The position numbers were made by a program, and so were the translations under genes. Below the pieces are notes generated by a model that saw only the letters and a list, made by a program, of their open reading frames with translations, was not told the origin of the DNA and searched no databases. DNA of 64,000 bases from Dehalococcoidia bacterium. Lineage in GTDB: Bacteria; Chloroflexota; Dehalococcoidia; Bin125. Numbering within the stretch: the stretch's first letter is position 1; every line of letters begins with the position of its first letter. Shown here piece by piece: positions 15,668-39,841 of the stretch. The stretch covers positions 1,796,537 through 1,860,536 of the forward strand of contig CBDHGH010000003.1 in assembly GCA_965263065.1 (NCBI GenBank). Reading direction: 5' to 3'.

Positions 15668-15884
15668 AGAACAGGCCCCATTGCTGGGGCCGTATGCGGA
15701 CGAAAACGATATGTCTGTTGCGGCCGACAGCCAAGGCTACGGGCCATGTACGTGCGGCCCGACGAGCCGGCCGCTGGCATCCTACCAGCGACCCCGCCGC
15801 CCCGTCAAACCGGCTACCCCCGCTCGACCTCCACGCGCCCGAGCGACCCGTCCGCCGGCAGCAACGACTGCAGCGTCCCGCCGT
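15668..15884. repeat. direct repeat copy 1 (217 bp, about 90% identical to 16458..16674), with a decayed copy of the nuoG-like 3' end
   Basis: Aligns base-for-base with the 3' end plus downstream flank of the nuoG-like gene. The minus strand here reads MHGGTLQSLLPADGSLGRVEVERG*, a pseudo C-terminus of that gene. An internal GGCCCCATTGCTGGGGCC hairpin is also present. Confidence 0.7.
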
Positions 15885-15892
15885 GCATGACT

Positions 15893-16384
15893 CTAGCTCG
15901 GGTCCATCACCCGGACGGCGATCGCGTTCGACCGGAGGACGGAGCGATGGTCGCGAGCGATCGCGTTGAGGACCAACGTCTCTCCAACGCGCACATGGGC
16001 GTCCGGCTCGTGCGCTCCGAAGAAGAATGAATCTCTCTCGAAGCCCTCCACGCGCCAGACCTCCGGTACATGATCGCCTCGAACTTCCGCGATCGTGTGG
16101 TGCCACAGCAACTTGCACCGGCGCCGGCGCACCTCGAAGCGCAGATCCTCAAGATGAGTCACCGGTGCTTTGCTCGTGACTGTGACTTTGATGGTGCCGA
16201 TGATCGTCAAGTAACGGTCCTTCGGCGTCGGCGCGGCATAGATCGGCACGTTCGGGTGACGGTTGTGGCGCTTCTCTACCGCTTCGATGTGGATGCGTGG
16301 CTTCTCATGCTGCCCACTGTTCCAGCGCTCGACCGCCCAACGGAAGAGTGAAAGCGGTGCTAGGAGCAGGCCCAACCATTCCAT
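15893..16384 (-). CDS. hypothetical protein, 163 aa, N-terminal TM anchor, lower-GC insert
   Basis: MEWLGLLLAPLSLFRWAV... followed by a soluble domain with no family I can recognise. The body is visibly less GC-rich (about 58% by eye) than its surroundings. It sits exactly between the two 217-bp direct repeats. Confidence 0.5.
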   Translation of the reverse strand: MEWLGLLLAPLSLFRWAVERWNSGQHEKPRIHIEAVEKRHNRHPNVPIYAAPTPKDRYLTIIGTIKVTVTSKAPVTHLEDLRFEVRRRRCKLLWHHTIAEVRGDHVPEVWRVEGFERDSFFFGAHEPDAHVRVGETLVLNAIARDHRSVLRSNAIAVRVMDPS

Positions 16385-16457
16385 GTCCGAACTCCGTGAA
16401 GCCCCAGCAGCATGTCAGAGCCGAGACTGCGGGAACACCAAGTGCTCTCCGCGCAAA

Positions 16458-16674
16458 AGAACAGGCCCCATTGCTGGGGCCATATGCGGACGAAAACAAT
16501 ATCTGCGTTGTGGCGGGCCGCCGAAGCTGCGGGCCATGTACATGTGGCCCGACGAGCCGGCCGCTGGCATCGTATCAGCGCGTGAGATGACCCGTCAAAC
16601 CGACTACCCCCGCTCGACCTCCACGCGCCCGAGCGACCCGTCCGCCGGCAGCAGCGACTGCACCGCCCCGCCGT
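16458..16674. repeat. direct repeat copy 2 (contiguous with the authentic 3' end of the nuoG-like gene)
   Basis: Same 217-bp unit as 15668..15884. It covers the last roughly 23 codons of the 860-aa gene plus about 145 bp of its downstream flank. Confidence 0.7.
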
Positions 16675-19186
16675 CCCAGAGCAGCGACGCGAAGACCGAC
16701 CCCGGCGCCACGTCCTGCGAGACCCGCGCCGTGATCGGCAGCGCCGTACCGTTGCCCCGCAGGACCACCGCCGCCCCGTCCTCGATGCCGCGCGCCGCCG
16801 CGTCGGCCGGGTGCAGGTCGACGAACGCGCTGCGGCCCAGCCGGTCGGCGTCGTCCATCCGCAGCGCCGCCGACGTGCGGTCGGTGTAGAGGTCGCGGCC
16901 CGTCAGCAGGACCAGCTCGCCGTCGCCGCTGCTCTCCAGCGTCGCCACCGCGCCGAACGCTTGGCTCATCGCCCCGTTCGAGGGCTGCCGCGCCGCGCTC
17001 AGCAGCCGCGATACCGTCGCGTCCGCGTAACGGGCGTCGCTCGCGGCCAAGGCCTCCATCGCCGCGGCCGGACCCTCCGGCAGCGCCGGGTCGTCCCGGT
17101 CCATCGCCGACGCCAGCGACGCCCCCAGCGCGCGCAGGTGCGACAGCGCTGGCTGCGCGCCCCGCTGCGGCCGGTAGGCCGCCCGCAGGCGCAGCATCTG
17201 GCGGTCGGCGTTGGTCACCGTGCCGTCCTTCGCGAAGACCGACACGTCGGCCAGCACGTGCGTCGCCAGCGCCACCGTGTCGGTCGCCGCTTCGTCGATC
17301 ACCAGCAGCAGGTCCAGCGTCTCCAGCGCCGTCCGCACCGCCGCCCGATCGGGCAGCGTCAGCAGCGGGTTGTCCTTCAGCACGATCAGCGCCTTCAGCG
17401 ACCCCGCCCGCGCCGCCGCCAGCATCCCGTCGACGTCCAGGCCGGCGTCGCCGGGACGCACGCCCGCGTCGCGCAGGCCGATGGTGTTGTTCTCGGGCGG
17501 CAGCACGTGCAGCGACGCGGGCGCCGCCTCGGGGCCCGCCAGCACGATCGCCAGGTTCGCCGCCGCCCGCACCTGCTCCCCCGCCGCGACTGCGTTGTGC
17601 CGCGACGGCGCGACCACGACCGCCACCGTCCCGCCGGTGCTCGCGGCCAAGGCCTCGGCGGCCGCGTCGGTCTCCGGCGACTGCGTCGCCGCTACTGCGT
17701 CCGCGCCGGGGAGGCCGGCCGCCTCGCCGTCGCGCGTCAGCAGCGCCGCCGCGATGGCCTGCGCCGTCGCGCCGATGTCGCCGCCGCGCGGCCGCAACTC
17801 GACGGCGGCGTAGTCGTCGATCGGGTTGCGGCGCGCGCTCAGGCTGACCAGCGTCGCCCCCCGGTTGACCACCGCATCCTTGATTCGCACGCCCAGCACG
17901 TTGTTGCTGCCGCTGAGGTCGTCGCCGATCACGACGAGCGTCCCCGCCTCCTCCACCGACGTCAGCCGCCCCGGCAGATGCACGCTGCCGAAGCTGTCGC
18001 GCAGCGCCGCCTCGACCGCCCCCCAGACCGACCCCACGCTCGCGTCGAGGTGCGGCGTGCCCAGCCACGACGCCAGCCGCGCCAGCGCGTAGTTCTCCTC
18101 GGTCGTCGCCTGGCCCGACCCCAGCAGCCCGACCGACGCCGCGCCGTGCGCCGCGACGATCGCCGCCAGCTTGGCGCTCGCGTCCCGCAGCACCACCGGC
18201 GTCTCGGCGTCGAATGCGTCCTGGCCGCGGCCCAGCCGCCCCGCGAGCAGCCGCTGCCGGTCGCGCACCTGGTCGTAGCCGAAGCGCCCGCGCACGCAGA
18301 TCTGGTCGCGCGACACGTCGTTGCCCGCCGACGGCCGCACGATCACGCCGCGGCCGTCGCGCACGCCGATCTGGATCGTGCAGCCCATGCTGCACTCGGT
18401 GCAGACGGTGCTGGCCCAGCGCTCGGGCCGCGCCAGCCACTTGTTGGGCGCCTCCATCAGCGTCGCCGTGGGGCAGACGTCGACGCAGGCGCCGCAGAAG
18501 TCGCAGTTCGACTCATCGATCGCGCCGCCCGCCCCGAACGCCATCCGCGTCGAGAAGCCGCGTCCGGCCAGCGTGATCGCCGTCGTGTGGCGCAGGTCGT
18601 CGCAGGCCCGCTCGCAGCGCGTGCAAAGGATGCACATCTGCGGGTCGAACTCGAAGTAGGGGTTGCCGCGGTCGGGCGGCGGCTGCTCGTACTGGTAGTA
18701 CGTACGCGCCTCGTCGAGGTACGGCTCGACGTTCGCGCGACCCATGTCCGCCACGTCCGACGCCGTCTGCAGCTCGCAGCGGTAGTTCTTCGAGCAGGTC
18801 ACGCAGCGATGCGTGACCACGTTGTCGCGCAGGCAGATGTCGCCGGTGCGGCAGTGCTCCACGCGGTGACAGGTCAGGCAGCGGTCGCTGTGGTTGGCCA
18901 GGATGAACGCCATGACCTCCTGGCGCATCTCCATCGAGGCCGGGCTGTCGGTCCGCACGACCATGCCCTCGCGCACGGCGGTGCTGCAGGCCAGCACCTG
19001 CCCGCGCATCCCCTCGACCTCGACGACGCACGTGCGGCAGCCCGCGTAGGCCGGCAGCCCGTCGATGTAGCAGAGGTTCGAGATGTAGATCCCGGCCTCC
19101 TTGATGACCTCCACCAAGGGACGGCCGGCCTCGACCACGTGGGCCGCGCCGTTAATCGTGATGTCCACCGTCGTGCTGGCGACCAT
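16604..19186 (-). CDS. NuoG-like molybdopterin oxidoreductase (2Fe-2S plus 4Fe-4S N-terminus, Mo-bisPGD-type domain)
   Basis: The N-terminal ferredoxin-like module, CxxC 4Fe-4S motifs and large molybdopterin-oxidoreductase body resemble NADH dehydrogenase subunit G or formate-dehydrogenase-type subunits. Confidence 0.8.
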   Translation of the reverse strand: MVASTTVDITINGAAHVVEAGRPLVEVIKEAGIYISNLCYIDGLPAYAGCRTCVVEVEGMRGQVLACSTAVREGMVVRTDSPASMEMRQEVMAFILANHSDRCLTCHRVEHCRTGDICLRDNVVTHRCVTCSKNYRCELQTASDVADMGRANVEPYLDEARTYYQYEQPPPDRGNPYFEFDPQMCILCTRCERACDDLRHTTAITLAGRGFSTRMAFGAGGAIDESNCDFCGACVDVCPTATLMEAPNKWLARPERWASTVCTECSMGCTIQIGVRDGRGVIVRPSAGNDVSRDQICVRGRFGYDQVRDRQRLLAGRLGRGQDAFDAETPVVLRDASAKLAAIVAAHGAASVGLLGSGQATTEENYALARLASWLGTPHLDASVGSVWGAVEAALRDSFGSVHLPGRLTSVEEAGTLVVIGDDLSGSNNVLGVRIKDAVVNRGATLVSLSARRNPIDDYAAVELRPRGGDIGATAQAIAAALLTRDGEAAGLPGADAVAATQSPETDAAAEALAASTGGTVAVVVAPSRHNAVAAGEQVRAAANLAIVLAGPEAAPASLHVLPPENNTIGLRDAGVRPGDAGLDVDGMLAAARAGSLKALIVLKDNPLLTLPDRAAVRTALETLDLLLVIDEAATDTVALATHVLADVSVFAKDGTVTNADRQMLRLRAAYRPQRGAQPALSHLRALGASLASAMDRDDPALPEGPAAAMEALAASDARYADATVSRLLSAARQPSNGAMSQAFGAVATLESSGDGELVLLTGRDLYTDRTSAALRMDDADRLGRSAFVDLHPADAAARGIEDGAAVVLRGNGTALPITARVSQDVAPGSVFASLLWDGGAVQSLLPADGSLGRVEVERG

Positions 19187-19225
19187 GCGTCGTCCGCGCT
19201 CCTCGTGCTGCTATTCCCGGCGCCG

Positions 19226-19711
19226 TCAGTGGTGCTGGCGCTCGCCGCTGGGGTGGATCTCCTGACGCACGGCCGGCTGCCCGTTGGGGTACACCCAGTC
19301 GTGCGAGTCCAGGTACTCGTTCGCCAGCGACGTCAGCGTCGGCTTGTCGTGGTACAGCTCGTTGGGGTCCCGCACGACGTTGGTGTACGAGCCGCCGACC
19401 TGGATCGCCTCGTACGGGCAGGCCTCCGCGCAGAGCCCGCAGTACATGCACAGGCGGAAGTCGATCTCGTAGCGCTCCACCAGATAGGAGCCGTCCTCGC
19501 GGGGCTGCGTCTGCACCAGGATGCAGCCGTCGGGGCAGGCCTGCGCGCAGGTGCTGCAGCCCGTGCAGCGCTCGACGAACCAGACCAGGTTCGTGCGGGC
19601 GCGCGGCGGGATCGGCCGCTCCGTCTCGGGGAACTCGAAGGTCGTGGGCTCCCGCACGAGATGCTTGATCGTCGTCAGCAAGCCCTTGGCGATGCCGATC
19701 CCGTACGTCAT
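19226..19711 (-). CDS. nuoI: NADH-quinone oxidoreductase subunit I-like (2x[4Fe-4S] ferredoxin)
   Basis: Two CxxCxxCxxxCP motifs ([24 protein letters not shown]), length 161 aa. Confidence 0.85.
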
Positions 19712-20478
19712 GAGCCCGGCTCCCCGTGCTTCGGCAGGCCATGCATCGACTGATAGTTGGTGTCGTGCGGCAGCGCGCCGGTCTTGGCGTCGCGCGGCAG
19801 CCCGCTGACGCTCAGGTAGGGCGGGAAGAGCGATTCCAGCTCGCGACGGATCGGGTCGCCCTCGGGCAGCATCGTCGAGAAGTCACCGTCCGGCTCCGGC
19901 CGCCGGCGCTTGCCCAGCAGCCCCTCCTCCTTCATGACGTCCTGCAGCAGCATCAGCCCCGACAGCAGCGACTCCGGTCGCGGCGGGCAGCCCGGCACGT
20001 AGACATCGACCGGCACGACGTTGTTGACACCCGGCAGCGTGCTGTAGCCGTGCGCGAACGGCCCCCCGATGTTGCTGCACGAGCCCATCGAGATGACCCA
20101 CTTGGGCTCCGCCATCTGCAGGTAGATGCGGCGCACCGCCGGCGCCATCTTCCAGGTCACCGTGCCCGCCACGATCATCAGGTCGGCCTGGCGCGGCGAG
20201 GCCCGGAACACCTCGGCCCCGAAGCGTGCGATGTCGTAGCGCGCGTTCGCCGTCGCGATCATCTCGATCGCGCAGCACGCCAGCCCGAACATCGCCGGCC
20301 ACAGCGACGAGCGCCGCGCCCACGTCAGCACGCTGTCCACCTTTGTGATCAGCAACTGCTGGCGCAGGTCCGACTCAATGTCCGTCACGCCGCCGGCCGC
20401 GCCTGGGGGCGGCTCGACGTTCAGCACCGGGATCGTCTCGCGATCGGCCACGCGTCCTCCCCTTGTGAAGTCGGGCAC
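19708..20478 (-). CDS. nuoB: NADH-quinone oxidoreductase subunit B-like (NuoB/hydrogenase small-subunit fold) with about 80-aa C-terminal extension
   Basis: [26 protein letters not shown] and VPGCPPRPE motifs. Overlaps nuoI by 4 nt. Confidence 0.85.
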
Positions 20479-20529
20479 GATGATATCAGCGCCCCCAGGT
20501 GGGCGATACCGTCGCGCCCGCGATCCCCC

Positions 20530-21693
20530 TCAGCCGATGGGCGACAGCGCCCGCAGCCGCTCGATCGCCTCGGGCAGCACCAGGCCGACGCGGTCGACCT
20601 GCGCCTGCGTGGTGCCCTGCCCCAGTGTCAGCCGCAGCGCCGAGTGCGCCAGGTCGGAATCGACGCCCATCGCCGTCAGCACGTGGCTGGGCTCGCTCGA
20701 CCCCGTCGTGCAGGCCGAGCCGGAGCTCGCCGCGACGCCCTCCATGTCGAGGTGCAGCAGGATGCTCTCGCCCTCGACCCCGGCGAAGCAAACGCTCAGG
20801 TTGTTGGGCAGCCGGCGCGCCATGTCGCGCGGGCCGTTCAGCGACACGTGCTCGACCCCCTCGCGCAGATGCCGCCACAGCCGATCGCGCAGGCCGCCCA
20901 CGTGCGCGTTGCGCGACGCCATCTCCGCGTGCGCCAGATCGAGCGCCGTCGCCAGCGCGACCGCCCCCGCGACGTTCTCCGTCCCCGCCCGGCGCTCGCC
21001 CTCCTGCCCGCCGCCGATGATCAGCGGCGCAAACGGCGTCCGATGCCGCACGTAAAGGGCGCCCGTGCCCTTCGGCCCGTAGATCTTGTGCGCTGTCAGC
21101 GACAGCAGGTCGACGCCCAGCGCGTCGGGCCGGATGTCGATCGCGCCCGCCGCCTGCACGGCGTCGGTGTGCACCAGCGTGCGCGGGTTGCGCGCCTTCA
21201 CCGCCGCCGCGATCGCCGCGATCGGCTGCACCGTGCCCACCTCATTATTGGCCGCCATGACCGTGAGCAGCGCCGTGTCGTCGCGGACGGCGTCGGCCGC
21301 GACCGCCGGGTCGACGAAGCCCTCGCCATCGACGGGCAGGATCGTGACCTCCCAGCCCTCCCGCTCAAGCGCCTCCAGCGGCTCCAGCACCGCGTGGTGC
21401 TCGATCGCCGACGTGATCATGTGCCGCCCCGTCGATGCCGCCGCGACGCCGCGGATGGCCGCGTTGTCGGCCTCGGTCCCGCCCGACGTGAAGACGACCT
21501 CCCCCGGGCGTGCAGCCCAGCCGTCCCGCCACGACGTCGCGCGCCTCGTCGAGCGCCTGCCGGGCGCGCTGCGCCTCGCGGTAGATGCCCGACGGGTTGC
21601 CCCAGCCCTCGCGCAGGATCGGCAGCATCGCCGCGATCACGCGCGGGTCCACGGGCGTCGTCGCCGCATGATCGAGGTACACCCGTTCGGACA
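20530..21693 (-). pseudogene. second cysteine desulfurase (IscS/NifS family) interrupted by a +1 frameshift in a G5/C5 homopolymer
   Basis: The N-terminal frame MSERVYLDHAATTPVDPRVIAA...LGCTPG (ORF 21365..21940) and the C-terminal frame MITSAIEHHAVL...SSGSACT (ORF 20530..21420) are both NifS-like. They join if one G is removed from the CCCGGGGGAGG run at about 21501-21505, where PGEVVFTSGGTE is expected. Confidence 0.6.
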
Positions 21694-21860
21694 TTGGCGC
21701 CTCATCTCCCTCGACGGCCGGGGCCGTCCCATGCAGGATATCCGCTTCGCCCCCACCCGGTCGCCCCGCGCCCCGCGACGCTCCATATCCTCGCCGATAG
21801 ACCCCTCGCGCCCCCGCTCGATATACTGCCCGCAACCGCCACATTCGAGAAGGATCCGCC

Positions 21861-22268: not shown

Positions 22269-22670
22269 TCAGTCCTCCGCGACAACCGTGAAGGGGACGG
22301 TGGCGACGAGTTCGTAGCCCACGTGGAGACAGAACTCGTAGTCACCGAATTCATCAATCGCGAGGTCCGGGATCCGGCAGATGAAGCCTGCGATATCGCG
22401 GTCGCCCGGGGACGGTCGCGTGAACTGAGCCGTCGTGCGCGTTATGGCGAATGTGTCATCGGGGCCGAGGAGCCGGAACTCGACATCCTTCCGCCCCGCC
22501 TCGTCGACCGAGTACGTGACCCCGATCACGAGGGTCATTGTTGGGATCACCGGGCTCCGTCGGGTGACCGGAATGGTCCTGATCGGGAAGCCCTCGATCG
22601 TCAGTCGGTCGCTGGCGGCTGCGTCCTCCGGCGTGACGGCTGCGCAGAGGAAGGCGAATTGCGATTCCAT
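22269..22670 (-). CDS. hypothetical protein (133 aa), lower-GC islet
   Basis: Coding-like composition, no recognisable family. Its first 20 codons overlap out of frame with the upstream 59-aa repeat-module ORF, so the true start may be the internal ATG near 22538. Confidence 0.4.
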   Translation of the reverse strand: MESQFAFLCAAVTPEDAAASDRLTIEGFPIRTIPVTRRSPVIPTMTLVIGVTYSVDEAGRKDVEFRLLGPDDTFAITRTTAQFTRPSPGDRDIAGFICRIPDLAIDEFGDYEFCLHVGYELVATVPFTVVAED

Positions 22671-22790
22671 TCCTCACGCTCCTCGGGGCTCAGAATCCGG
22701 AGAGTGACGGTCTTGAACTCCATCCCGCCATATGTCGCGGTCGATTCGGCCGGCTCGGACGGCTGAGAGTCAGTGGTCATGGCTGCCGGG
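22610..22790 (-). CDS. small repeat-module protein (59 aa; MTTDSQPSEPAES...EEREEWNRN...PPATD)
   Basis: Below the ORF-track size cutoff. Same N-terminus (MTTDSQPSE), central EEREEW motif and C-terminus (PPATD*) as the modules of the adjacent 107-aa protein. Confidence 0.35.
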
Positions 22791-22844
22791 CTCCTATTCG
22801 TGGTCCCATCCTACACGGAAGCAGCAGGGCAAATGCGGCACGCG

Positions 22845-23168
22845 TCAGTCGGTCGCCGGCGGCGGCTCATTCCGATCTGACTCGTCCCCAGGGGAAGGCG
22901 GATTGCGATCCCATTCCTCGCGCTCCGCGGGGGTGAATAGCCGGACCGGGCCGATCCTCACGAACTTGCCGAAGCCGAACTTCGCGGTCGATTTGGACTG
23001 CTCGGGTGGCGGAGAGTCGGTGGTCGGCGGCAAGGAAGACGGATTGCGGTCCAGTTCCTCGCGCTCCGCGGGGGTGAATAGCCGGACCGGGCCGACCCTC
23101 ACGAACCGGCCGTAGCCGAACTTCGCGGTCGAGTCGGGCTGCTCGGACGGCTGAGAGTCGGTGGTCAT
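22845..23168 (-). CDS. tandem-repeat small protein (107 aa; two copies of a 47-aa module)
   Basis: MTTDSQPSEQPDSTAKFGYGRFVRVGPVRLFTPAEREELDRNP, then STAKFGFGKFVRIGPVRLFTPAEREEWDRNP, then ...PPATD*. The underlying DNA has about 145-bp tandem repeats spanning 22870-23170. Confidence 0.45.
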   Translation of the reverse strand: MTTDSQPSEQPDSTAKFGYGRFVRVGPVRLFTPAEREELDRNPSSLPPTTDSPPPEQSKSTAKFGFGKFVRIGPVRLFTPAEREEWDRNPPSPGDESDRNEPPPATD

Positions 23169-23198
23169 GACAGCCGGACTCCTGTTCCTGGCGCCAGC

Positions 23199-23714
23199 CT
23201 ACACCGAAGAAGCAGCGTTCGGCGCGGCGACGCGCTGCAGCGCCAGCATCGTCTCGATGTCGCGCTCGTGCAGCGAGACGAGCACGTCCTCGACGCTGAT
23301 CGTGCCCCGGAAGGGGTGCGTCCCCCGCCGCGCCAGCGACCGGTCCGACAGCCCCCACAGCAGCCCGCACGTCTCGTCGCGCGACTGCCCGTAGATGCGC
23401 GCCAGCTGCCGGACCTCGACCGCCTCCGCGCCCGTCGCCAGCCACTCCGCCGGGTGCAGCCTCAGCTCCTCGCGACCGCGCAGCAGCTGCTCCAGATGCC
23501 AGCCGCCGGCCCGCTCCTGCACGGCCAGCTCCCACGCGATCTCGAGCACCTCCGCCGCCGCCCCCGCCGGCCGATCGCCCCGCGCCGCGACGAACAGCGC
23601 CTCCTGCACCTCGCCGCCGCCCTCGCGCAGCGCCTTCAGCAGCCAACTCGCTCGATCCACCGTCGCGCCTCCCCTGCCGCGCAGGCTCCCGGCGGAGCGC
23701 GACCATTCTGACAC
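23199..23714 (-). CDS. hypothetical protein (171 aa)
   Basis: Preferred over the antisense Arg/Pro-rich ORF 23268..23711. Weak resemblance in PAEWLATGAEAVEVRQLARIYG to Xre/ParS-type antitoxin C-domains. Not assignable. Confidence 0.4.
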   Translation of the reverse strand: MSEWSRSAGSLRGRGGATVDRASWLLKALREGGGEVQEALFVAARGDRPAGAAAEVLEIAWELAVQERAGGWHLEQLLRGREELRLHPAEWLATGAEAVEVRQLARIYGQSRDETCGLLWGLSDRSLARRGTHPFRGTISVEDVLVSLHERDIETMLALQRVAAPNAASSV

Positions 23715-29513: not shown

Positions 29514-29602
29514 GCGACCACCCCCGACGCAACCGCCGGCGCCTGCTATCGCGCACTACTCGCCGCCTCCCGCCTGCGAGAGCGCGTGGCCTGACCCCCA
29601 CG

Positions 29603-29704
29603 CTACTCCTCGACGACCTCCTGCTGATCGACGCGCAGCCGCAGCCCCGGCGGCATCGCGACGCCGGTCTTGGGGCTGCGCTCCGGCGGCTTGCTCGCCG
29701 CCTT
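29603..29704. repeat. degenerate direct copy of the 3' end of the downstream BtuF-like gene (about 102 bp)
   Basis: The minus strand reads ...AASKPPERSPKTGVAMPPGLRLRVDQQEVVEE*, close to the authentic C-terminus ...AASKPPERSPKTDVAMPPGLRITVQQQEVVEEE* at 30650-30754. Together the two copies bracket the esterase gene. Confidence 0.55.
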
Positions 29705-29764
29705 CGACCCCCGCCTGCGCGGCAGCGGCTACGCTGTCCCCCAAGTCAAAGGGGACCAGCAACC

Positions 29765-30628
29765 GTGACCAACCCGCCGCAGCAGCTCTCCGGCACCGAA
29801 GTCCACACGCTGCACTCGGACGCCGTCGGAGACGCGTTCGAAATCACCGTCGCCGCGCCGCCGCCCGGGACGGAGGGCCCGGTCGGGGTGGTGTACTTCA
29901 CCGACGCGACCACACGGATCGGGACCGCCGTCGAGACGGTCCGCTCGCTATCCACGATCGGGGAGATTCCGCCGCTGCTCCTGGTCGGCGTGGGCTACGC
30001 GATCGGCGGCGATTATGCCCGCTGGGTGCGCTTCCGCGCGCGGGACTTCACGCCCGGTCCCTCGTCCAACCCGGCGGAGCATGCGGCGATCGCGCCGATC
30101 GTCGGACCCGATCCGGTGGAGACGGGCGGGGCGCCGCGGTTTCTCGACTTCCTCGCGGACGAACTCCAACCCTGGGTGCGCGACCGCTATGCCGTGAGCG
30201 ACGATACGGCCTATATCGGCAACTCTCTGGGCGGGCTGTTCGGCGTCTACACCCTCTTGCACCGCCCCGCCGCGTTCCGCCGCTACATCATCGGCAGCCC
30301 CTGGCTGTGCTGGGACCCGGAGACGACCACGGCGTACGAGCCCGCCTACGCCGCCGATCACAGCGACCTCGACGCCACCGTGTTCCTCGCCGCGGGCGCG
30401 CACGAGGACGTGCTGCCCCCCGGGCTGTCCGCGCCGATGCAGGCCAACTTCGGGGCCGCCGACACCGCCGCCCATACGCGGCGCTTGGCGGAGGCGCTCG
30501 AGCAACGCCGATACCCCAGCCTCGACTTGACCTGGCGCATCTTCCCCGAGGTCACGCACTTCACCATGTTGCCGGTCCTGACCGCGCTCGGCTTGCGCGC
30601 GGTCTACGCCGACTGGCGCCGGCGCTAG
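29765..30628 (+). CDS. alpha/beta-hydrolase esterase (putative-esterase / IroE-like siderophore esterase family)
   Basis: GxSxG nucleophile elbow IGNSLGGLFGV. Fold and length match PF00756-type esterases. Confidence 0.75.
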   Translation: MTNPPQQLSGTEVHTLHSDAVGDAFEITVAAPPPGTEGPVGVVYFTDATTRIGTAVETVRSLSTIGEIPPLLLVGVGYAIGGDYARWVRFRARDFTPGPSSNPAEHAAIAPIVGPDPVETGGAPRFLDFLADELQPWVRDRYAVSDDTAYIGNSLGGLFGVYTLLHRPAAFRRYIIGSPWLCWDPETTTAYEPAYAADHSDLDATVFLAAGAHEDVLPPGLSAPMQANFGAADTAAHTRRLAEALEQRRYPSLDLTWRIFPEVTHFTMLPVLTALGLRAVYADWRRR

Positions 30629-30649
30629 GCGCGGCCCCGCCCGATCCCG

Positions 30650-31789
30650 CTACTCCTCCTCGACGACCTCCTGCTGCTGCACGGTGATCCGCAGCCCCGG
30701 CGGCATCGCGACGTCGGTCTTGGGGCTGCGCTCCGGCGGCTTGCTCGCCGCCTTGCGGGCCTTGCCCGACCGCGTCGCCGCCTTCTTCTTGGCCGCCGCC
30801 CGCTGCGCGTCGGTCAACCGCGGCCTGGCGCCCGCCGCCGCCTTTTTCCCGGCGCCCGTGCGCCCCGTGGCCGTGCCCGCCTTCTTCGACGCCGCCTTGC
30901 CGGCCGCCCCTGTCTTGCCGGCCGCTGCCGTCTTCGACGCCTTCACGGGCCGCGCCGGCGCCTTCCAGCCGGGCCGCGCCCGGTCGAACAGCTCCTCCAA
31001 CTTCGCCAGGCCCTCCTGGGCGCGGGCGCCGTACCAGGTCAGCAGGCGCCCATCGAGCAGGAAGACATGCTGCTTGCGGGCGGCCGTGATCGATTGCAGC
31101 GCCTGTAGCTCGCGCCGATGCCGCCGCCCGAATCGGTACGGCTCCGACGGCAGCAGGATCACCTCCGGATCCGCCCGCGCGATCTCCGACAGCTCGACCT
31201 GCGGATAGCGGTTGCCGCGCACGTGCGACTCGAAGACGTTCTCGCCGCCCGCCAGCCGGATCAGGTCGCCCGCGTAGGTGTCGCCCGCCGCCGCCATGAA
31301 CGGCCGGTACCAGATCGGGCAGAACACGCGCACGCGCGGGCGGTCCGCGTTCAGCGTCTCCTGCCGCTCGATCTCCTCGCTGACCAGGGCGACGATGGGA
31401 CGCACCATCGCGAAATGGAGCAGCTGCGCGATGGTCTTCAGGTCCTCCAACGCGTCGCGGGCGGTGCGCGGGTAGCCCACGTACACCTGCAGTCCGGCCG
31501 CCTCCAGCGCCGCGATGTCCTCCTCCCGGTTCTCCTCGCGATTCGCCAGCACCAGGTCCGGCGCGAGCGCCACGATCGCCGCGATGTCGGGATCCTTCGT
31601 CCCGCCGATCTTGCGGATCGCGGCCGCCTCGGCCTCGGGCTCGGTGCAGAACTTGGTGATCCCCACCAGGCGCTTCACGCCCGCCAGCTGCGCCACGCTC
31701 TCCGTCACGCTCGGCACGAGCGAGACGATGCGGTCCGGCCGCAGCGCGGTCGTGATGGTCTGGCCGCGGGAGTCCTCGGCGCTGGCCAT
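30650..31789 (-). CDS. BtuF/FhuD-like periplasmic-binding-fold protein (class III SBP) lacking a signal peptide, with Lys/Ala-rich C-terminal tail
   Basis: RIVSLVPSVTESVAQLAG...LVGIT and DPDIAAIVALAPDLVLA are typical of cobalamin/siderophore binding proteins. The C-terminal 100 aa are KA-rich (AAKKKAATRSGKARKAASK). Start taken at MASAEDSRGQ; the listed ORF extends to 31957. Confidence 0.7.
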   Translation of the reverse strand: MASAEDSRGQTITTALRPDRIVSLVPSVTESVAQLAGVKRLVGITKFCTEPEAEAAAIRKIGGTKDPDIAAIVALAPDLVLANREENREEDIAALEAAGLQVYVGYPRTARDALEDLKTIAQLLHFAMVRPIVALVSEEIERQETLNADRPRVRVFCPIWYRPFMAAAGDTYAGDLIRLAGGENVFESHVRGNRYPQVELSEIARADPEVILLPSEPYRFGRRHRRELQALQSITAARKQHVFLLDGRLLTWYGARAQEGLAKLEELFDRARPGWKAPARPVKASKTAAAGKTGAAGKAASKKAGTATGRTGAGKKAAAGARPRLTDAQRAAAKKKAATRSGKARKAASKPPERSPKTDVAMPPGLRITVQQQEVVEEE

Positions 31790-32004
31790 TGGGGTCCTCT
31801 CGGGTGGCGCCGTGGGGCGCGTGGGCCCCGGCGCATCCCGCCGTCCGGCCCGGTCGAGTATACCGGCCCCCATGCGACTGGGCCCTGGTCGCCGGCCCCG
31901 CGCGCGGGCCCGGGCCCCCGATGCAACCGCGACGCGACCCCGCGCGTATCGATACACAGGACCGGCGCGCTCGCGGCGACCGCGCGGTCGGGTATCCTCC
32001 GGCG

Positions 32005-33619: not shown

Positions 33620-33880
33620 ATGGCGGTCTTCGACACCCTTGACGCGTCCCGGCGCCTGCGTGACGAAGCGGGCCAGTCACAGGAAGCGGCCGAGACGATC
33701 GCGGATGTGATCGGGCAGGCCGTCGCGCCCATGGTGCGGCTGGACGACTTGATGGTGCGGCTGGACGACTTCGTGACGCGGGCCGAGTTCCACCAGGCGA
33801 TACGCCGCCAGACGATCCGGCTTAGCGGCATCATCATCGCGGTGACCGCCATCGGAGTGGCAATCGTGAAGCTGACCTAG
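33620..33880 (+). CDS. DUF1640-like small coiled-coil protein with C-terminal TM anchor
   Basis: MAVFDTLDASRRLRDEAG...FHQAIRRQTIRLSGIIIAVTAIGVAIVKLT*. Paralogous to 41345..41617 and 44164..44340 (shared ...A(I/L)(V/L)(K/R)LT* end). Confidence 0.6.
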   Translation: MAVFDTLDASRRLRDEAGQSQEAAETIADVIGQAVAPMVRLDDLMVRLDDFVTRAEFHQAIRRQTIRLSGIIIAVTAIGVAIVKLT

Positions 33881-37171: not shown

Positions 37172-37305
37172 GGGTCGTCGAGCGAAGCCGCGATCCGACG
37201 CTACTTCCGGCGGCGGCCCCATTCAAGCCGTGTAGTCAGGCCGTGCAGTCAAGCGGCGCCGTCAGGCCGTGCGACGGAGGTCCGTCGCCCGGCCCCGCCG
37301 GTCGC

Positions 37306-39156
37306 TTAGAAGGGACATAGCTGCTGCGACAGGAACGGCGGCAGCCCGAAGCCGAACTGCTGCCAGAACGCGTCCCACTCCGCGACGCGCGGCGTCAGCG
37401 CGTCGTTCAGCGCCGCGCAGCCGATGGCCGGTTCTGGCTGCGCGATGATCGCGCTCAGGTAGGCCGTCCCCAGCGCCCCGATCAGCCCGCCGCCCGCAGA
37501 CGACATCTGCGCCAGCGACGTGGCGGCCGTCGCGTCGCCCAGCCGGAGCTGCGTGATCGACGCGCGCAGCTGCGCCAGCGCCATCAACTCCGGGCCGGCC
37601 CCCGGCACGAATTCGTCCAGGCTGCCGTCGCTGGCGGCCAGCCCGTACAGCGCCAGCGCGCCCACGTAATCGCCCGCGTCGAAGGCGGTGTTGCCGTCGG
37701 CGATGATCCACACCAGGTACGACGTCGGCAGGCCCACCCGCGCGATCTCCGCGAAGTTGCCGCCCACCGCGCTGTAGACGAACTGGAACGGCCGCGCCGG
37801 GCCCGCCCCGATGCTCCCGAACGTGCCCCCCTCGATCGTCAGGTCGGCCACCCCGTCGCCGGTCACGTCGTCGAAGCCGAACGACGTCGCCGTCGGCACC
37901 GCGATGTCCACCGCCGCGTTGCGGTAGCCGTCGCCGTCGCGCACCAGCACCCGCACGATCGTTGTGCAGGTGTTGGCCCCGCACGCCGTCTCGCCGTACG
38001 TGATGTCCCGCCGCCCATCGCCCGTGACGTCGACGACGGTCATCACGAAGAAGTCCTGCCCACCGCCGTAGGCCAGGTTGTGGTCGAAGGCCTGCCGCCA
38101 GCGCGTCGGCTGGTCCGGCGCCGGGTCGTAGATCACGAGGTTGGCGTCGGTCAGAGAGCCGTGCTGCGCCGGGCCGGGGTCGGTGAAGATCGTGACCAGG
38201 CTGAACAGCCCGTCGCCGTCCGTGTCGACGAGGTGGAATCGGTCGCCGCGCGGCACCGGCGGCATGCTCCAGGCGAGGAACAGGTCCACGACCTCGTCGA
38301 CCTCGGTGCGGTCCTGCAACCAGGGCAGCGCCGTCGTCGCGAACGCCGCCAGCGCGGCCGGCCGCGTCGGGACGTCCTCCAGCGTGACGTCGCTGGCCGG
38401 CTGCGGGATGCCGCCCGGCGACAGGCCCGTCGGCGTCAGCGGGGCCGGGGTGGGCGGGGTGTCGTCCTCGGCCGGTTCGTCCTCCGCCGCATCGTCCTCG
38501 GCCGGGTCGTCGCCTTCTTCGCCGGCCTCGTCCTCGGCGGTGGCGTCGTCGGCGGTGGCGTCCTCGCCGTCCTCGCCGTCCTCGCCGTCGGCGGCCTCGT
38601 CGGTCTCGTCCGTGGCGGCCTCGTCGCCGTCACCCTCCTCCGCGACCGTGTCCTCCTCCTCCTCTTCCTCCGGCTCCCCGCCCGGCAGGATCAGCACGTC
38701 GCCGACCTGCAGCAGGTCCGGGTTATCCAACTGGTTGATGTCCTGGAGCACGGCCGCCGTCGTGCCGAAGCGGAACGCGATATCGCCTAGCGTGTCGCCG
38801 GCCTGCACCGTGTAGGTGCCGTCGCTCGTCGTCGCGGCGGTGGCCGAGGGGCGCTGGACCTGCACGGTCGCGCCGCCGCCCGCCGACGGGCGGTCCTCGT
38901 CGGCCGATTGGTCCGCGGCGGCCGCGGCCGCGGCCGCTGCGGCGGTGGCTGCGGGTGTTGGGGCGGCGCGTACGGGGGCCGCGGCCGCAGGCGCGGCGGT
39001 GTCAGCGGCGGCGGCTGGCGTCTGAGTGTCGGTCGCCGCGGCGGCGTCGGTGACCACCGGCTCCTCGTCGCCGCCACAGGCAGCGATCACCAGCGCGACC
39101 CCCGGCAGGACCAGCGCCGCGAGCACGAATAATCGGATTGATCGTCTGGGCATGCG
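37306..39156 (-). CDS. LysM-domain lipoprotein with acidic linker and FG-GAP/VCBS-like repeats
   Basis: Signal peptide with lipobox (LVIAACGGD). LysM (YTVQAGDTLGDIAFRFGTTAAVLQDINQL). An about 80-aa D/E-rich stretch. Repeated DxDGDG motifs (VDTDGDGLFSL, VTGDGRRDI, VTGDGVADL). Confidence 0.75.
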   Translation of the reverse strand, partial: RMPRRSIRLFVLAALVLPGVALVIAACGGDEEPVVTDAAAATDTQTPAAAADTAAPAAAAPVRAAPTPAATAAAAAAAAAADQSADEDRPSAGGGATVQVQRPSATAATTSDGTYTVQAGDTLGDIAFRFGTTAAVLQDINQLDNPDLLQVGDVLILPGGEPEEEEEEDTVAEEGDGDEAATDETDEAADGEDGEDGEDATADDATAEDEAGEEGDDPAEDDAAEDEPAEDDTPPTPAPLTPTGLSPGGIPQPASDVTLEDVPTRPAALAAFATTALPWLQDRTEVDEVVDLFLAWSMPPVPRGDRFHLVDTDGDGLFSLVTIFTDPGPAQHGSLTDANLVIYDPAPDQPTRWRQAFDHNLAYGGGQDFFVMTVVDVTGDGRRDITYGETACGANTCTTIVRVLVRDGDGYRNAAVDIAVPTATSFGFDDVTGDGVADLTIEGGTFGSIGAGPARPFQFVYSAVGGNFAEIARVGLPTSYLVWIIADGNTAFDAGDYVGALALYGLAASDGSLDEFVPGAGPELMALAQLRASITQLRLGDATAATSLAQMSSAGGGLIGALGTAYLSAIIAQPEPAIGCAALNDALTPRVAEWDAFWQQFGFGLPPFLSQQLCPF

Positions 39157-39306
39157 GGCTCCGGCGCCAACCCCATCCACCAGGGTCACTGTAGCGGGCA
39201 CAGGGCCCAAGCGGGTATCCGCACGGCGCTATTTGGCCAGACGCCCCGTCCCGCCCCCCAGTTCCCGGCCTCGGCGCTGGCTGGCGGCTGATGCGCCCCT
39301 GCATCT

Positions 39307-39358
39307 GAGTGCGAGGGTGTCACAGGTGATCCTGCGATCTGGCCCAGAGCCCGGCGGC
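39307..39358. repeat. 52-bp direct repeat copy 1 (pairs with 39755..39806)
   Basis: GAGTGCGAGGGTGTCACAGGTGATCCTGCGATCTGGCCCAGAGCCCGGC versus GAGTGCAAGCGTGTCACGGGCCATCCTGCGATCTTGCGCAGAGCCTGGC. Together the copies bracket the MNT/HepT' module. Confidence 0.5.
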
Positions 39359-39400
39359 GCGCTGCATGTCGTACAGGTACTTGCGAGCCTCAAGCCTCAT
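39320..39400 (-). pseudogene. truncated HepT-like (DUF86) toxin remnant, 26 codons
   Basis: MRLEARKYLYDMQRAAGLWARSQDHL*. Its ATG is embedded in the last codons of the MNT gene (typical MNT-HepT overlap), but it terminates after 26 aa, inside direct repeat copy 1. Confidence 0.3.
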
Positions 39401-39713
39401 AGACGGCTGTCCTCGTTCGCTCCACCGATTCGCGGAAGTAGGGATTCCGGATGGCGGAATCCACCACCAAGTCCACGGACCGCCCAAAGAGCCCCTGGAG
39501 CGCGTCGAGCAGCCCGAAGTAGGCGTCCGCGTAGCCGACGAGCGCCGCCGGCTGGAACTCGACCAGGAAGTCCAGGTCGCTCGCGTCCGGATCGTCCCTG
39601 CCGGTTGCGACCGACCCGAACAGGTCGAGCCTCTGGACGCCGTACCTGAGACAGAGGCGTCGCAACTCGTCGGTCTGGTCGTCAACCGTAGGGATCATGC
39701 CAGTTTCGCCCAT
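39390..39713 (-). CDS. nucleotidyltransferase-domain protein (MNT/MntA-type antitoxin of HepT-MNT modules)
   Basis: GSVATGRDDPDASDLDFLVEF is the minimal nucleotidyltransferase (GS...D.D) signature. Confidence 0.75.
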   Translation of the reverse strand: MGETGMIPTVDDQTDELRRLCLRYGVQRLDLFGSVATGRDDPDASDLDFLVEFQPAALVGYADAYFGLLDALQGLFGRSVDLVVDSAIRNPYFRESVERTRTAVYEA

Positions 39714-39841
39714 TCGTTCCGTACCCTAGCAGGGCGGCGATGGACCCCTGAACCGGAGTGCAAGCGTGTCACGGGCCATCCTGCGATCTTGCGCAGAGCC
39801 TGGCGACACTGGCGCGTGCGAATGCTTCGTGCGCAGCCTCT

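What the first reader, a model, noticed from the sequence alone, without database searches (positions are those of the whole stretch)
15668..39806. Recurring genome architecture: accessory genes flanked by duplicated 3' ends of neighbouring genes (three instances in 64 kb)
Three separate loci share one layout: the nuoG-like locus with the 163-aa ORF, the BtuF-like locus with the esterase, and the MNT/HepT' locus. Each has a short gene or module sitting between imperfect direct repeats that copy the terminal codons or 3' flank of an adjacent resident gene, so that the resident gene stays intact. The repeat sequences are unrelated to one another, so this is not one repeat family. It hints instead at a shared insertion or acquisition mechanism that duplicates target 3' ends, as tyrosine-recombinase islands do at tRNA or gene 3' ends. 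It could also reflect a genome prone to homology-mediated cassette exchange. I am not aware of a described mini-cassette system with this signature that lacks its own recombinase.
Basis: inference. Interest (0 to 1): 0.6.

Follow-up and report, generated by a model that had tools for sequence, protein, structure and literature searches.

The report
Displaced gene-end scars around imported genes
Small strain-specific genes in an uncultured Dehalococcoidia genome sit between imperfect second copies of neighbouring sequence, and comparison with relatives shows these copies are scars of imprecise recombination during gene import, not the mark of a new mobile cassette system.

Summary
All three repeat pairs exist and are far beyond chance. 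Relatives show that all three bracketed genes are real insertions with empty sites elsewhere.

At the nuoG-like and BtuF-like loci, the outer copy is a displaced, non-coding 3' end of the resident gene, which stays intact. At the MNT locus, both copies lie inside the inserted DNA and are absent from empty sites, so that locus does not fit the description.

The same layout recurs twice more in relatives, at a LON-domain gene and a LysR gene. That gives four 3'-end-copy events, plus the MNT insertion, in about 64 kb of shared synteny.

The repeats share no motif. No recombinase is encoded in the window. The esterase cargo begins inside the remnant of a foreign permease gene, and junctions sit at 3-7 nt microhomologies. 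Alternative alleles are found stacked one behind the other.

The best reading is imprecise, microhomology-mediated or one-sided-homology recombination, followed by homologous exchange among strains. Purifying selection keeps only events that leave the resident gene whole. The closest known parallels are Rhs C-terminal displacement and T6SS immunity-gene arrays.

This is a real, moderately interesting evolutionary signature. It is not a new mobile element.

The parts
16604..19186 (-). Resident nuoG/YjgC-like molybdopterin oxidoreductase gene, intact (860 aa)
   Evidence: Pfam Fer2_4, Molybdopterin and Molydop_binding. Full-length homologues at 89-96% identity.
16439..16674 (-). Locus 1, gene-attached copy. 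It holds the last ~26 codons of nuoG, the stop, and the sRNA-like unit 'S_A' (promoter TTGACG-18-TACGAT at 16598-16569; terminator hairpin at 16481-16464).
   Evidence: It is 97% identical to the single copy in L002.
15893..16384 (-). Locus 1 cargo: ORF163, an orphan protein with a hydrophobic N-terminus
   Evidence: No Pfam or PHROG hit. Only two homologues among 5.8e9 proteins. dN/dS 0.32 against the L012 homologue, so it is a real gene.
15878..15885 (-). Locus 1 illegitimate junction: the end of the ORF163 block (…tagagtcatgc) joined to nuoG codon -26 (acggcggg…)
   Evidence: In L012 the same block ends at the same …agtcatgc but continues into the post-stop G-rich region (cgggcgg…). This gives a CGG(G)CGG microhomology.
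15650..15884 (-). Locus 1 displaced copy: a non-coding nuoG 3' end (TAG at 15814-15816) plus a second, diverged S_A unit (promoter 15808-15779, terminator 15691-15674)
   Evidence: It is 86% identical to the gene-attached copy and is absent from L002, L001, L003 and L012.
15539..15623 (-). 3' part of the ancestral intergenic hairpin-plus-terminator unit 'S', shared with all relatives
30650..31957 (-). Resident BtuF-like periplasmic binding protein gene (Peripla_BP_2), intact; start codon uncertain
   Evidence: Its C-terminus (…LRITVQQQEVVEEE) was compared with the relatives.
30629..30754 (-). Locus 2, gene-attached copy: ~20 nt of 3' flank, the stop and the last ~35 codons of the BtuF-like gene
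29765..30628 (+). Locus 2 cargo: esterase of the siderophore-esterase type (PF00756)
   Evidence: Sources name homologues 'ferri-bacillibactin esterase'. It is 84-88% DNA-identical to esterases in other Dehalococcoidia contigs, where it follows SBP_bac_5 or ABC permease genes.
29702..29731 (+). Remnant of the last ~10 codons (FDPRLRGSG) of a foreign ABC permease gene. This marks the left end of the imported fragment, joined to BtuF codon -35 through a 3-nt CTT microhomology.
   Evidence: 93% match to the 3' end of the BPD_transp_1 gene that precedes the esterase in L010.
29583..29704 (-). Locus 2 displaced copy: a non-coding BtuF 3' end (stop at 29603-29605), contiguous with the native BtuF-LRR intergenic region
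   Evidence: Its stop-proximal ~40 nt match the single copies of L005 and L007. It is decaying in L004, which has a 42-nt internal deletion.
39842..40285 (-). Resident dUTPase gene. The locus 3 insertion starts within ~5 nt of its stop codon.
39273..39838 (-). Locus 3 inserted segment. It is absent from L006, L007 and L008 and contains both repeat copies, MNT and a HepT stump.
39726..39830 (-). Locus 3 upstream repeat copy, between the dUTPase stop and the MNT start
   Evidence: No significant fold and no attC core sites.
39390..39713 (-). MNT nucleotidyltransferase antitoxin gene
   Evidence: Pfam NTP_transf_2. The identical protein occurs in the same context in 11 contigs.
39320..39400 (-). 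HepT stump: the first ~17 codons fused to downstream sequence after a 338-bp deletion, with the junction at 39345-39354
   Evidence: L004 carries an intact HepT (7441-7788) with the RX4HXY-type motif.
39277..39356 (-). Locus 3 downstream repeat copy, between the HepT stump and the LysM-protein gene (37306-39210)

Best explanation
These are recombination scars, not a mobile-element system.

How I think it works. Pieces of DNA from related Dehalococcoidia lineages were joined into the chromosome at, or just inside, the 3' end of a resident gene. At least one end was joined by an illegitimate, microhomology-mediated junction. The other end was joined by a second illegitimate junction or by a homologous crossover inside the resident gene. 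This is homology-facilitated or double illegitimate recombination, or replication template switching.

When the join falls a few dozen codons before the stop, the product survives only if a complete 3' end is supplied on the gene side. The old 3' end, with whatever followed it, is then pushed downstream as a non-coding copy. I call this '3'-end displacement', or allele stacking.

Ordinary homologous recombination among strains afterwards moves and mixes these alleles. That mixing makes the two copies imperfect and mosaic.

What is shown:
- The insertions and their empty sites.
- The displaced, decaying copies.
- The microhomology junctions.
- The random-fragment nature of the esterase cargo.
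- The stacked alternative alleles.
- The absence of a shared motif or a recombinase.

What is inferred:
- The enzymology and the order of events.
- That selection for intact flanking genes in a compact genome explains why such products are the ones seen.

Locus 3 is a toxin-antitoxin insertion immediately after a stop codon. Its repeats came with, or predate, the insert, and their origin is unresolved.
For: (1) Polarity. Empty sites with one copy exist for locus 2 (L005, L007, L008). Sites with no insert exist for locus 3 (L006-L008) and for the LON site (window, L002, L003).

(2) Locus 2 cargo is a random fragment. It runs from codon -11 of a foreign ABC permease gene to ~5 nt after the esterase stop. 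Homology to L009-L011 ends exactly there. The junctions lie at CTT and GCGCG microhomologies.

(3) Locus 2 mosaic. The displaced copy keeps the ancestral stop-proximal codons (LRLRVDQQ, as in L005 and L007). The functional copy has a clustered foreign patch (LRITVQQQ). The BtuF body is disproportionately diverged from L005: 80-90% against 95-97% next door, with a sharp change near 31.9 kb.

(4) Locus 1. The nuoG-VIT1 spacer is a hot spot with five different alleles: empty in L003, a 73-aa ORF in L001, DUF3800 in L002, ORF163 without a displaced copy in L012, and ORF163 plus a displaced copy in the window. The two copies differ by 14%. The 98%-identical relative L002 lacks the displaced one, so this is not an in-situ duplication. 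The window-L002 mismatch density is 2.8 times higher in the 3' half of nuoG than upstream (p=3e-6), although other pairs also rise 1.5-2.4 times.

(5) The same layout in relatives. In L001 a 55-nt copy of the LON 3' end sits between two different cassettes. In L004 a 54-nt copy of the LysR 3' end sits between the window-type allele (ORF65) and the L007-type allele (ORF142).

(6) No shared k-mer among the repeats. No recombinase or transposase domain in any ORF tested across the window.

(7) Other insertions in the same region, such as NYN in L001, sit right after stop codons without long repeats. The repeats are therefore a variable by-product and not a requirement.

(8) The Rhs and T6SS literature describes the same displacement logic (PMC2935791, PMC5361080).
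Against: - The inner 66 nt of the two locus 2 copies are nearly identical (1 mismatch) and share derived states against L005 and L007. Explaining this needs an extra step: later homologous import of an already duplicated allele, or gene conversion.
- The hypothetical recipient allele of locus 1 (nuoG-S_A'-S without cargo) has not been observed.
- Different cargos share identical left junctions. ORF163 and DUF3800 both begin right after the S_A hairpin. Both L001 cassettes begin after GGCGTCGCGG. This could reflect a site preference.
- The locus 3 repeats remain unexplained.
- Only about 64 kb of synteny in 4-5 lineages was examined, so enrichment and 3'-end bias are untested genome-wide.
- Whether these organisms are naturally competent, or have end-joining enzymes, is unknown.
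Confidence: 0.6

Rival explanations
1. Campbell-type integration. A circularised DNA fragment carrying the cargo plus a piece of the resident gene's 3' end integrates by a single RecA-dependent crossover. This duplicates the homologous piece on both sides. It is the model proposed for Rhs tip displacement.
For: It gives exactly gene-cargo-3'copy with chimeric copies. It naturally explains the near-identical inner 66 nt with a diverged outer patch at locus 2. It is the model proposed for Rhs loci (PMC2935791).
Against: It still needs an illegitimate circle-closing junction. The native contexts of the esterase (L009-L011, L023) have no BtuF-like sequence next to it. At locus 1, LON and LysR the mismatches are spread over the whole repeat and are not split at one crossover point. 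It cannot be separated from the best explanation with the present data.
Confidence: 0.2
2. A site-specific (tyrosine or serine) recombinase encoded elsewhere inserts small integrase-less cassettes into gene 3' ends. Each cassette carries a replacement 3' end, as islands do at tRNA, ssrA or gene ends (CIME-like or satellite elements).
For: The duplicated 3' end that restores the target gene is the classic signature. Dehalococcoides islands at ssrA show it (PMC3146451). Identical left junctions for different cargos occur at the nuoG and LON sites. One esterase homologue (L010) lies ~5 kb from a Phage_integrase gene.
Against: No recombinase in the 64 kb. No shared core among the five repeats. Repeat length and inner boundary are arbitrary (54-236 nt). 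The esterase cargo begins inside a truncated foreign gene, and ORF65 is itself a truncated paralogue, so there are no defined element ends. The locus 3 repeats are not in the target.
Confidence: 0.08
3. Local tandem duplication of the gene end happened first, by slippage or unequal crossing-over. An unrelated insertion then landed between the copies, and the copies diverged in place.
For: The near-identity of the inner 66 nt at locus 2 and of the LON copies (96%) is compatible with recent duplication.
Against: The locus 1 copies differ by 14%, yet the 98%-identical L002 lacks the second copy. The clustered 7-of-12-nt patch at locus 2 is not point-mutation decay. The LysR case joins two alleles that are 73% identical. 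This model needs two independent rare events at the same spot, four times over.
Confidence: 0.06
4. There is no common cause. These are unrelated accidents (one hot spot, one gene import, one toxin-antitoxin insertion) that look alike by chance or through reader selection.
For: Locus 3 is structurally different. Several neighbouring indels have no long repeats. The 3'-end bias is not significant (6 of 8 available flanks are 3' ends).
Against: Four events with the same gene / cargo / displaced-3'-end geometry occur in ~64 kb of synteny. They are also the only local gene-bracketing repeats in the window.
Confidence: 0.1

Closest known systems
Rhs C-terminal tip displacement arrays (Jackson et al. 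2009, PMC2935791)
   Same: A full-length gene is followed downstream by fragments that repeat its 3' region. Each fragment is attached to different acquired sequence. Incoming DNA displaces the incumbent end, which then decays. No dedicated integrase is involved.
   Different: In Rhs loci the variable part is the gene's own toxic C-terminal tip plus an immunity gene. Here the resident genes are housekeeping-type (oxidoreductase, binding protein, LON-domain, LysR). Their C-termini are essentially unchanged, and the variable part is a separate downstream gene.
T6SS effector-immunity arrays built by homology-facilitated illegitimate recombination (Kirchberger et al. 2017, PMC5361080)
   Same: A homologous anchor lies in a conserved upstream gene and the other end is illegitimate. 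Successive events stack older modules downstream. Loci become mosaics from several donors.
   Different: That system is driven by selection for immunity genes in one gene-cluster type. Here the events are scattered over unrelated intergenic sites with unrelated cargo.
Experimental HFIR, double illegitimate recombination and short-patch DIR during natural transformation (de Vries & Wackernagel 2002; Prudhomme et al. 2002; bioRxiv 10.1101/2023.11.22.568220)
   Same: Foreign DNA is integrated through GC-rich microhomologies of a few nucleotides, with or without a one-sided homologous anchor.
   Different: Those are laboratory events in competent Acinetobacter, Streptococcus and Pseudomonas. Competence, frequency and the formation of 50-240-nt flanking duplications are not shown for this lineage.
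Integrase-mediated islands at ssrA, tRNA or gene 3' ends, including Dehalococcoides ssrA islands (McMurdie et al. 2011, PMC3146451)
   Same: Direct repeats copy the 3' end of the target, the target stays intact, and tandem arrays form by repeated use of the same site.
   Different: Those elements have a cognate recombinase, one conserved att core and defined element ends. None of these was found here.
Integron cassette arrays / CALINs
   Same: Single genes, often toxin-antitoxin modules, are bracketed by imperfect ~60-140-nt repeats and carry no recombinase of their own.
   Different: The repeats here have no attC fold and no R'/R'' core sites. At loci 1 and 2 they are copies of resident coding sequence.

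Membership tests
Site-specific integrative island / integrase-less satellite (CIME-like) | Recombinase gene in the element, or demonstrably acting on it | tested here: not met
   No Phage_integrase, Resolvase or transposase Pfam hit in any tested ORF of the 64-kb window.
Site-specific integrative island / integrase-less satellite (CIME-like) | Direct repeats that reconstitute the 3' end of the target gene | tested here: met
   Met at locus 1, locus 2, the LON site (L001) and the LysR site (L004). Not met at locus 3.
Site-specific integrative island / integrase-less satellite (CIME-like) | A common att core, or one element family using one target | tested here: not met
   No shared 9- or 10-mer among the five repeats, apart from one 9-mer shared by a single pair. 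Shared 8-mers are at or below the rough random-segment expectation in nearly all pairs. Four different targets are used.
Site-specific integrative island / integrase-less satellite (CIME-like) | Defined element ends, independent of the donor context | tested here: not met
   The esterase cargo starts inside the last ~11 codons of a foreign permease gene. ORF65 is a truncated paralogue.
Integron cassette / CALIN | attC site: imperfect palindrome with R''/R' core sites that folds as a single strand | tested here: not met
   Fold z-scores range from -0.55 to +1.1 against shuffles. No GTTRRRY or RYYYAAC in any copy.
Diversity-generating retroelement (VR at the gene 3' end, TR nearby) | Reverse transcriptase gene and adenine-specific TR-to-VR mismatches | tested here: not met
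   No RT domain (Pfam calls above). Mismatches are spread over all four bases: A accounts for 3 of 32 at locus 1 and 2 of 14 at locus 2.
Rhs-type 3'-end displacement array | Intact gene followed by downstream fragment(s) repeating its 3' region, each linked to different acquired sequence | tested here: met
   Locus 1, locus 2, LON in L001, LysR in L004.
Rhs-type 3'-end displacement array | The exchanged part is a polymorphic toxin tip with a cognate immunity gene | tested here: not met
   The resident genes are an oxidoreductase, a binding protein, a LON-domain protein and a LysR regulator. Their C-termini are conserved.
Homology-facilitated / double illegitimate recombination product | At least one junction between unrelated sequences at a short microhomology | tested here: met
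   Locus 2: CTT and GCGCG. Locus 1: CGG(G)CGG. LON and LysR: 1-2 nt.
Homology-facilitated / double illegitimate recombination product | A donor-derived tract extending from the cargo into the anchoring gene | tested here: inconclusive
   The BtuF body is disproportionately diverged from L005. The 3' half of nuoG has 2.8 times more window-L002 mismatches, but other pairs also rise 1.5-2.4 times.
Homology-facilitated / double illegitimate recombination product | DNA uptake route (competence, conjugation or transduction) and the enzymes involved | not testable with these tools
   Only 64 kb of the genome is available and no experiments are possible.
MNT-HepT toxin-antitoxin module (locus 3 cargo) | MNT nucleotidyltransferase gene followed by an overlapping HepT (DUF86) gene | tested here: met
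   The pair is intact in L004 (MNT 7125-7448, HepT 7441-7788). In the window, HepT is reduced to a stump by a 338-bp deletion.

The most novel reading that the evidence does not exclude
This Dehalococcoidia lineage may have a systematic, sequence-independent way of adding genes just behind stop codons. It could be coupled to replication or transcription termination, or driven by an unrecognised trans-acting enzyme. It would create 50-240-nt duplications of the upstream gene's 3' end and would use small promoter-plus-terminator units such as S_A as reusable landing pads. That would amount to a recombinase-free cassette platform.
Probability: 0.08. Interest if true: 0.7.

Novelty: new variant of a known kind. 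Interest (0 to 1): 0.38.

Why it matters
These genomes are compact (about 2.7-2.9 Mb) and come from uncultured organisms. The stretch examined shows no transposases or integrases, yet it differs between close relatives at many small sites.

The scars give a readable record of how single genes enter such genomes. Random fragments from related lineages are joined at microhomologies next to stop codons. Homologous recombination then shuffles the resulting alleles.

If a genome-wide count confirms the pattern, displaced 3' ends could serve two purposes. They could act as markers for recent gene gain in metagenome-assembled genomes. They could also provide a natural measure of illegitimate against homologous recombination in lineages that cannot be grown.

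The finding does not reveal a new molecular machine.

Tried and rejected
- **Integron attC:** the repeats do not fold better than shuffles and lack core sites.
- **DGR VR/TR pair:** no RT, and mismatches are not adenine-specific.
- **tRNA/tmRNA or known RNA target:** no tRNA or tmRNA and no Rfam family at gathering score. Only sub-threshold chance hits appear in 15250-16750.
- **Native adjacency of esterase and BtuF in a donor:** in L009, L010, L011 and L023 the esterase follows SBP_bac_5 or permease genes and has no BtuF-like sequence downstream.
- **Assembly duplication:** the copies are diverged, the junctions lack shared k-mers, and the structures recur in independent assemblies.
- **Shared motif among the repeats:** none.
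- **Repeats flanking the SBP gene in L009 and L011:** these turned out to be palindromic REP/terminator-like hairpins, which is a different phenomenon.
- **Searches that returned nothing:**
  - Exact-protein look-ups for the window's nuoG, VIT1 and HisG.
  - Metagenome pattern scans for the locus 3 repeat and for S_A.
  - PHROG scan of the cargos, which recognised only RusA and a DUF3800-like family.
- **One call failed** on a wrong frame.
- **Not attempted:** structure prediction of ORF163, because its function does not bear on the architecture.
Full report
**Context.** The window has 72% G+C. By homology it belongs to uncultured Dehalococcoidia (Chloroflexota) known from metagenome-assembled genomes of 2.65-2.9 Mb. 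I obtained syntenic DNA from several relatives:
- L001 and L004 are from one genome, OZ244557.1 (~94-95% identical to the window).
- L002 and L017 are from one 42.5-kb contig (~97-98%).
- L005 is ~90% identical.
- L003 and L007 are from CAXXCV010000001.1 (~86-89%).
- L006 (~85%) and L008 (~77%) are more distant.
- L012 is a 1.25-kb TARA scaffold.
- Eleven contigs carry the window's MNT protein.

**Observation.** The three repeat pairs are real:
- 15668-15884 / 16458-16674: 217 nt, 87%.
- 29589-29704 / 30639-30754: 116 nt, 87%.
- 39277-39356 / 39726-39805: 80 nt, 76%.

In a self-BLAST of the window their E-values are 2e-73, 2e-34 and 1e-11. The other local repeats are the 72-nt LRR units, a low-complexity gene at 46 kb, two paralogue pairs and a tandem gene family at 22.6-23.2 kb. 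None of those brackets a gene.

**Locus 1 (nuoG-like gene / ORF163).** Reading along the minus strand, the order is as follows:
- The intact 860-aa molybdopterin oxidoreductase gene ends at 16604.
- A ~155-nt unit follows, which I call S_A. It has a sigma-70-like promoter (TTGACG-18-TG-n-TACGAT) and a terminator hairpin.
- ORF163 comes next (16384-15893).
- Eight nucleotides later there is a second copy of the last 26 nuoG codons with its own TAG (15816-15814).
- A second, 84%-identical S_A follows.
- Last comes the 3' part of an older hairpin-plus-terminator unit, S.

ORF163 is a genuine gene. It has one other homologue (84%, L012) among 5.8 billion proteins, and dN/dS is 0.32.

The spacer between this gene and the convergent VIT1 gene is a hot spot with five alleles:
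- L003 has only S.
- L001 has a diverged S plus a 73-aa ORF placed behind a second S promoter.
- L002 has S_A followed by a DUF3800 gene and an intact S, flanked only by a 26-nt repeat of the promoter.
- L012 has S_A-ORF163 followed directly by an intact S.
- The window has S_A-ORF163 followed by the displaced nuoG end and S_A'.

L002 is 97-98% identical to the window on both sides and has the gene-attached copy (97%). It lacks the displaced one, which is only 86% like either. The second copy therefore cannot be a recent in-place duplication. It is a diverged allele of the same region.

In L012 the ORF163 block ends at the same …tagagtcatgc. There it is joined to the G-rich sequence just after the nuoG stop (cgggcgg…). 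In the window it is joined to nuoG codon -26 (acggcggg…). The junctions are thus different, at similar CGG-rich microhomology.

The simplest reading is this. An incoming nuoG-S_A-ORF163 allele recombined homologously inside nuoG and illegitimately at its far end. That pushed the resident nuoG end and its own downstream allele (S_A'-S) behind the new cargo.

One further result is consistent but not decisive. Window-L002 mismatches are 2.8 times denser in the last 1.7 kb of nuoG than upstream (p=3e-6). Other pairs also rise 1.5-2.4 times.

**Locus 2 (BtuF-like gene / esterase).** L005, L007 and L008 have a single copy of the repeat and no esterase. The BtuF-like gene runs straight into the upstream region of the LRR gene. 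L004 and L002 share the insertion.

The imported DNA is a random chromosomal fragment. Its homology to esterase loci of other Dehalococcoidia (L009-L011, L023; 84-88% DNA identity) starts at 29702 and stops a few bases after the esterase stop codon. Its first 30 nt are the last codons (FDPRLRGSG) of the ABC permease gene that precedes the esterase in L010.

The two junctions are as follows:
- Left: BtuF codon -35 joined to permease codon -11, sharing CTT.
- Right: just after the esterase stop, joined ~20 nt downstream of the BtuF stop, sharing GCGCG.

About 137 nt of target is therefore present on both sides.

The copies are mosaic:
- The displaced copy keeps the ancestral stop-proximal codons (LRLRVDQQEVVEE, as in L005 and L007) and the native flank.
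- The functional copy has a clustered patch (7 of 12 nt, giving LRITVQQQ).
- The inner 66 nt differ at one position and share derived states against L005 and L007.
- The BtuF body is 80-90% identical to L005, against 95-97% just upstream of the gene, and the change near 31.9 kb is sharp.

I infer that the insertion-duplication arose in another lineage. It then entered this one by homologous recombination, with one crossover inside the outer copy and the other upstream of BtuF. Gene conversion is an alternative.

The displaced copy is decaying. L004 has lost 42 nt of it between CCGGCGGC repeats. It also preserves the native upstream region of the LRR gene, which may be why it persists (inference).

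The cargo makes functional sense beside a Peripla_BP_2 protein. Some sources name its homologues ferri-bacillibactin esterases. That link is inference.

**Locus 3 (MNT/HepT').** The segment 39273-39838 is missing from L006, L007 and L008. In those relatives the dUTPase stop is followed within a few bases by the sequence that follows the insert in the window. Both repeat copies lie inside that segment and nothing like them is at the empty sites.

L004 has the complete module: repeat, MNT, HepT, repeat, with repeats of ~105 nt. The window, L005 and all eleven contigs carrying the identical MNT have lost 338 bp of HepT, leaving an orphan antitoxin.

The repeats do not fold better than shuffles and have no attC core sites. 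No other copy exists in any sequence I hold or in the JGI metagenome scan.

This locus is therefore a toxin-antitoxin insertion right after a stop codon. It does not show duplication of resident sequence. The repeats may be a fossil of an earlier event elsewhere, or an older intergenic layer that was stacked. I cannot tell which.

**The layout recurs in relatives.**
- *L001, LON site.* A 2.07-kb insertion follows the LON-substrate-binding-domain gene. It is empty in the window, L002 and L003. A 55-nt, 96% copy of that gene's last 15 codons plus 9 nt separates an AHJR-like/RusA pair from a second two-gene cassette.
- *L004, LysR site.* The LysR gene is followed by the window-type small ORF (ORF65, itself a truncated paralogue). 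Next comes a 54-nt copy of the LysR end, and then the L007-type ORF142. Two alternative alleles are thus stacked.

Counting loci 1-3, that is five independent events in about 64 kb of shared synteny.

Other indels in the same region sit just behind stop codons without long repeats. Examples are NYN in L001, HicB presence or absence, and a restriction-modification pair in L003.

**Mechanism.** The five repeats share no motif. Their lengths range from 54 to 236 nt with arbitrary inner ends. No ORF tested across the window has a recombinase or transposase domain. Cargo ends fall inside other genes. These facts argue against a dedicated, site-specific cassette system.

They fit illegitimate, microhomology-mediated joining of DNA from related lineages, with or without a homologous anchor in the resident gene. 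In a genome with almost no spare intergenic space, only products that keep both neighbours functional would survive. Homologous exchange among strains then follows.

Whether the duplication arises from a linear fragment, a circular intermediate or replication template switching cannot be decided here.

**Comparison with known systems.**
- *Rhs C-terminal displacement* (PMC2935791) is the closest. A full gene is followed by fragments of its 3' region attached to different acquired tips, and the authors propose homologous recombination with circular intermediates.
- *Vibrio T6SS effector-immunity arrays* (PMC5361080) are attributed to homology-facilitated illegitimate recombination.
- The present cases work the same way but are not members of those families. 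The resident genes are ordinary, their C-termini are unchanged, and the variable part is a separate gene.
- *Integrase islands at ssrA in Dehalococcoides* (PMC3146451) share the look of the repeats. They do not share the recombinase, the core or the defined ends.

**Verdict.** The integrase-like interpretation is not supported.

This is a new variant of a known kind of recombination scar. It is moderately interesting for how compact uncultured genomes gain genes. A preference for 3' ends, and any enrichment over chance, remain untested at genome scale.

Noticed in passing
window 15392-15505, 15539-15623, 15650-15808, 16455-16598 (minus strand); L003:12596-12722: The nuoG-VIT1 spacer holds several small promoter-plus-hairpin-plus-terminator units: S, two S_A copies and a third unit. 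S is conserved in four relatives as a ~25-bp stem followed by a terminator, with compensatory changes predicted at 4 of 41 pairs. None matches an Rfam family. They may be small RNAs.
   Followed up: partly
window 39320-39400; L004:7441-7788: The HepT toxin gene is deleted (338 bp) in the window, in L005 and in all 11 contigs with the identical MNT, leaving an orphan antitoxin. L004 keeps the intact pair. The window and L005 junctions look different, which suggests independent toxin loss.
   Followed up: partly
window 25647-29513 (minus strand): A 1288-aa leucine-rich-repeat protein built of 72-nt (24-aa) units with internal segmental duplications (26319-26618 / 28359-28658; 28100-28248 / 29138-29286). 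Its length varies strongly among relatives. This is a eukaryote-like repeat protein of the type common in symbionts.
   Followed up: no
window 33620-33880 (+), 44160-44354 (-); L004:2269-2691; L001:12839-13060: A family of small coiled-coil proteins with a C-terminal hydrophobic tail (…AIVKLT) occupies several intergenic spots. It varies in length and copy number between relatives. The 73-aa ORF at the nuoG site of L001 has a similar build, but homology was not established.
   Followed up: partly
window 14095-14151: About four tandem 15-nt units (CGCCGCTTGACGCCC), each containing TTGACG, lie ~45 nt upstream of the VIT1 iron-transporter start (14194). This may be a reiterated promoter or operator.
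   Followed up: no
window 41430-41594: 33-nt tandem repeats (11-aa units) inside a small minus-strand ORF (41345-41617). The corresponding gene is called at 57 aa in L013 and 97 aa in L015, so copy number probably varies between strains.
   Followed up: no
window 22269-23215: A tandem pair of related small genes (DUF6941 and a 107-aa ORF) with duplicated 5' ends and upstream regions (93 nt, 85%). The 107-aa ORF also has an internal 141-nt repeat. In L003 part of this cluster is replaced by a Dam-like methyltransferase plus an EcoRV-like endonuclease.
   Followed up: partly
L001:7958-8667; window 9040-9600; L002:19543-19631: There are other single-gene presence/absence differences just behind stop codons. 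A NYN-domain gene is present only in L001 and is inserted ~10 nt after the aminotransferase stop without long repeats. A HicB-like antitoxin gene is present in the window, L001 and L003 but replaced by 87 nt in L002.
   Followed up: partly
L009:2325-2357 / 4835-4867; L011:2370-2401 / 4876-4907: Palindromic ~32-nt elements (CCCCCTCTCCAGC…GCTGGAGAGGGGG) flank the solute-binding-protein gene upstream of the esterase in two other Dehalococcoidia lineages. They look like REP or terminator hairpins.
   Followed up: no
window 1707-3011 vs 20530-21636; 2980-4419 vs 41739-43187: Two diverged paralogue pairs lie within the window. The class-V aminotransferases are 68% DNA-identical. There are also two acyl-CoA synthetase (Succ_CoA_lig-type) genes.
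   Followed up: no
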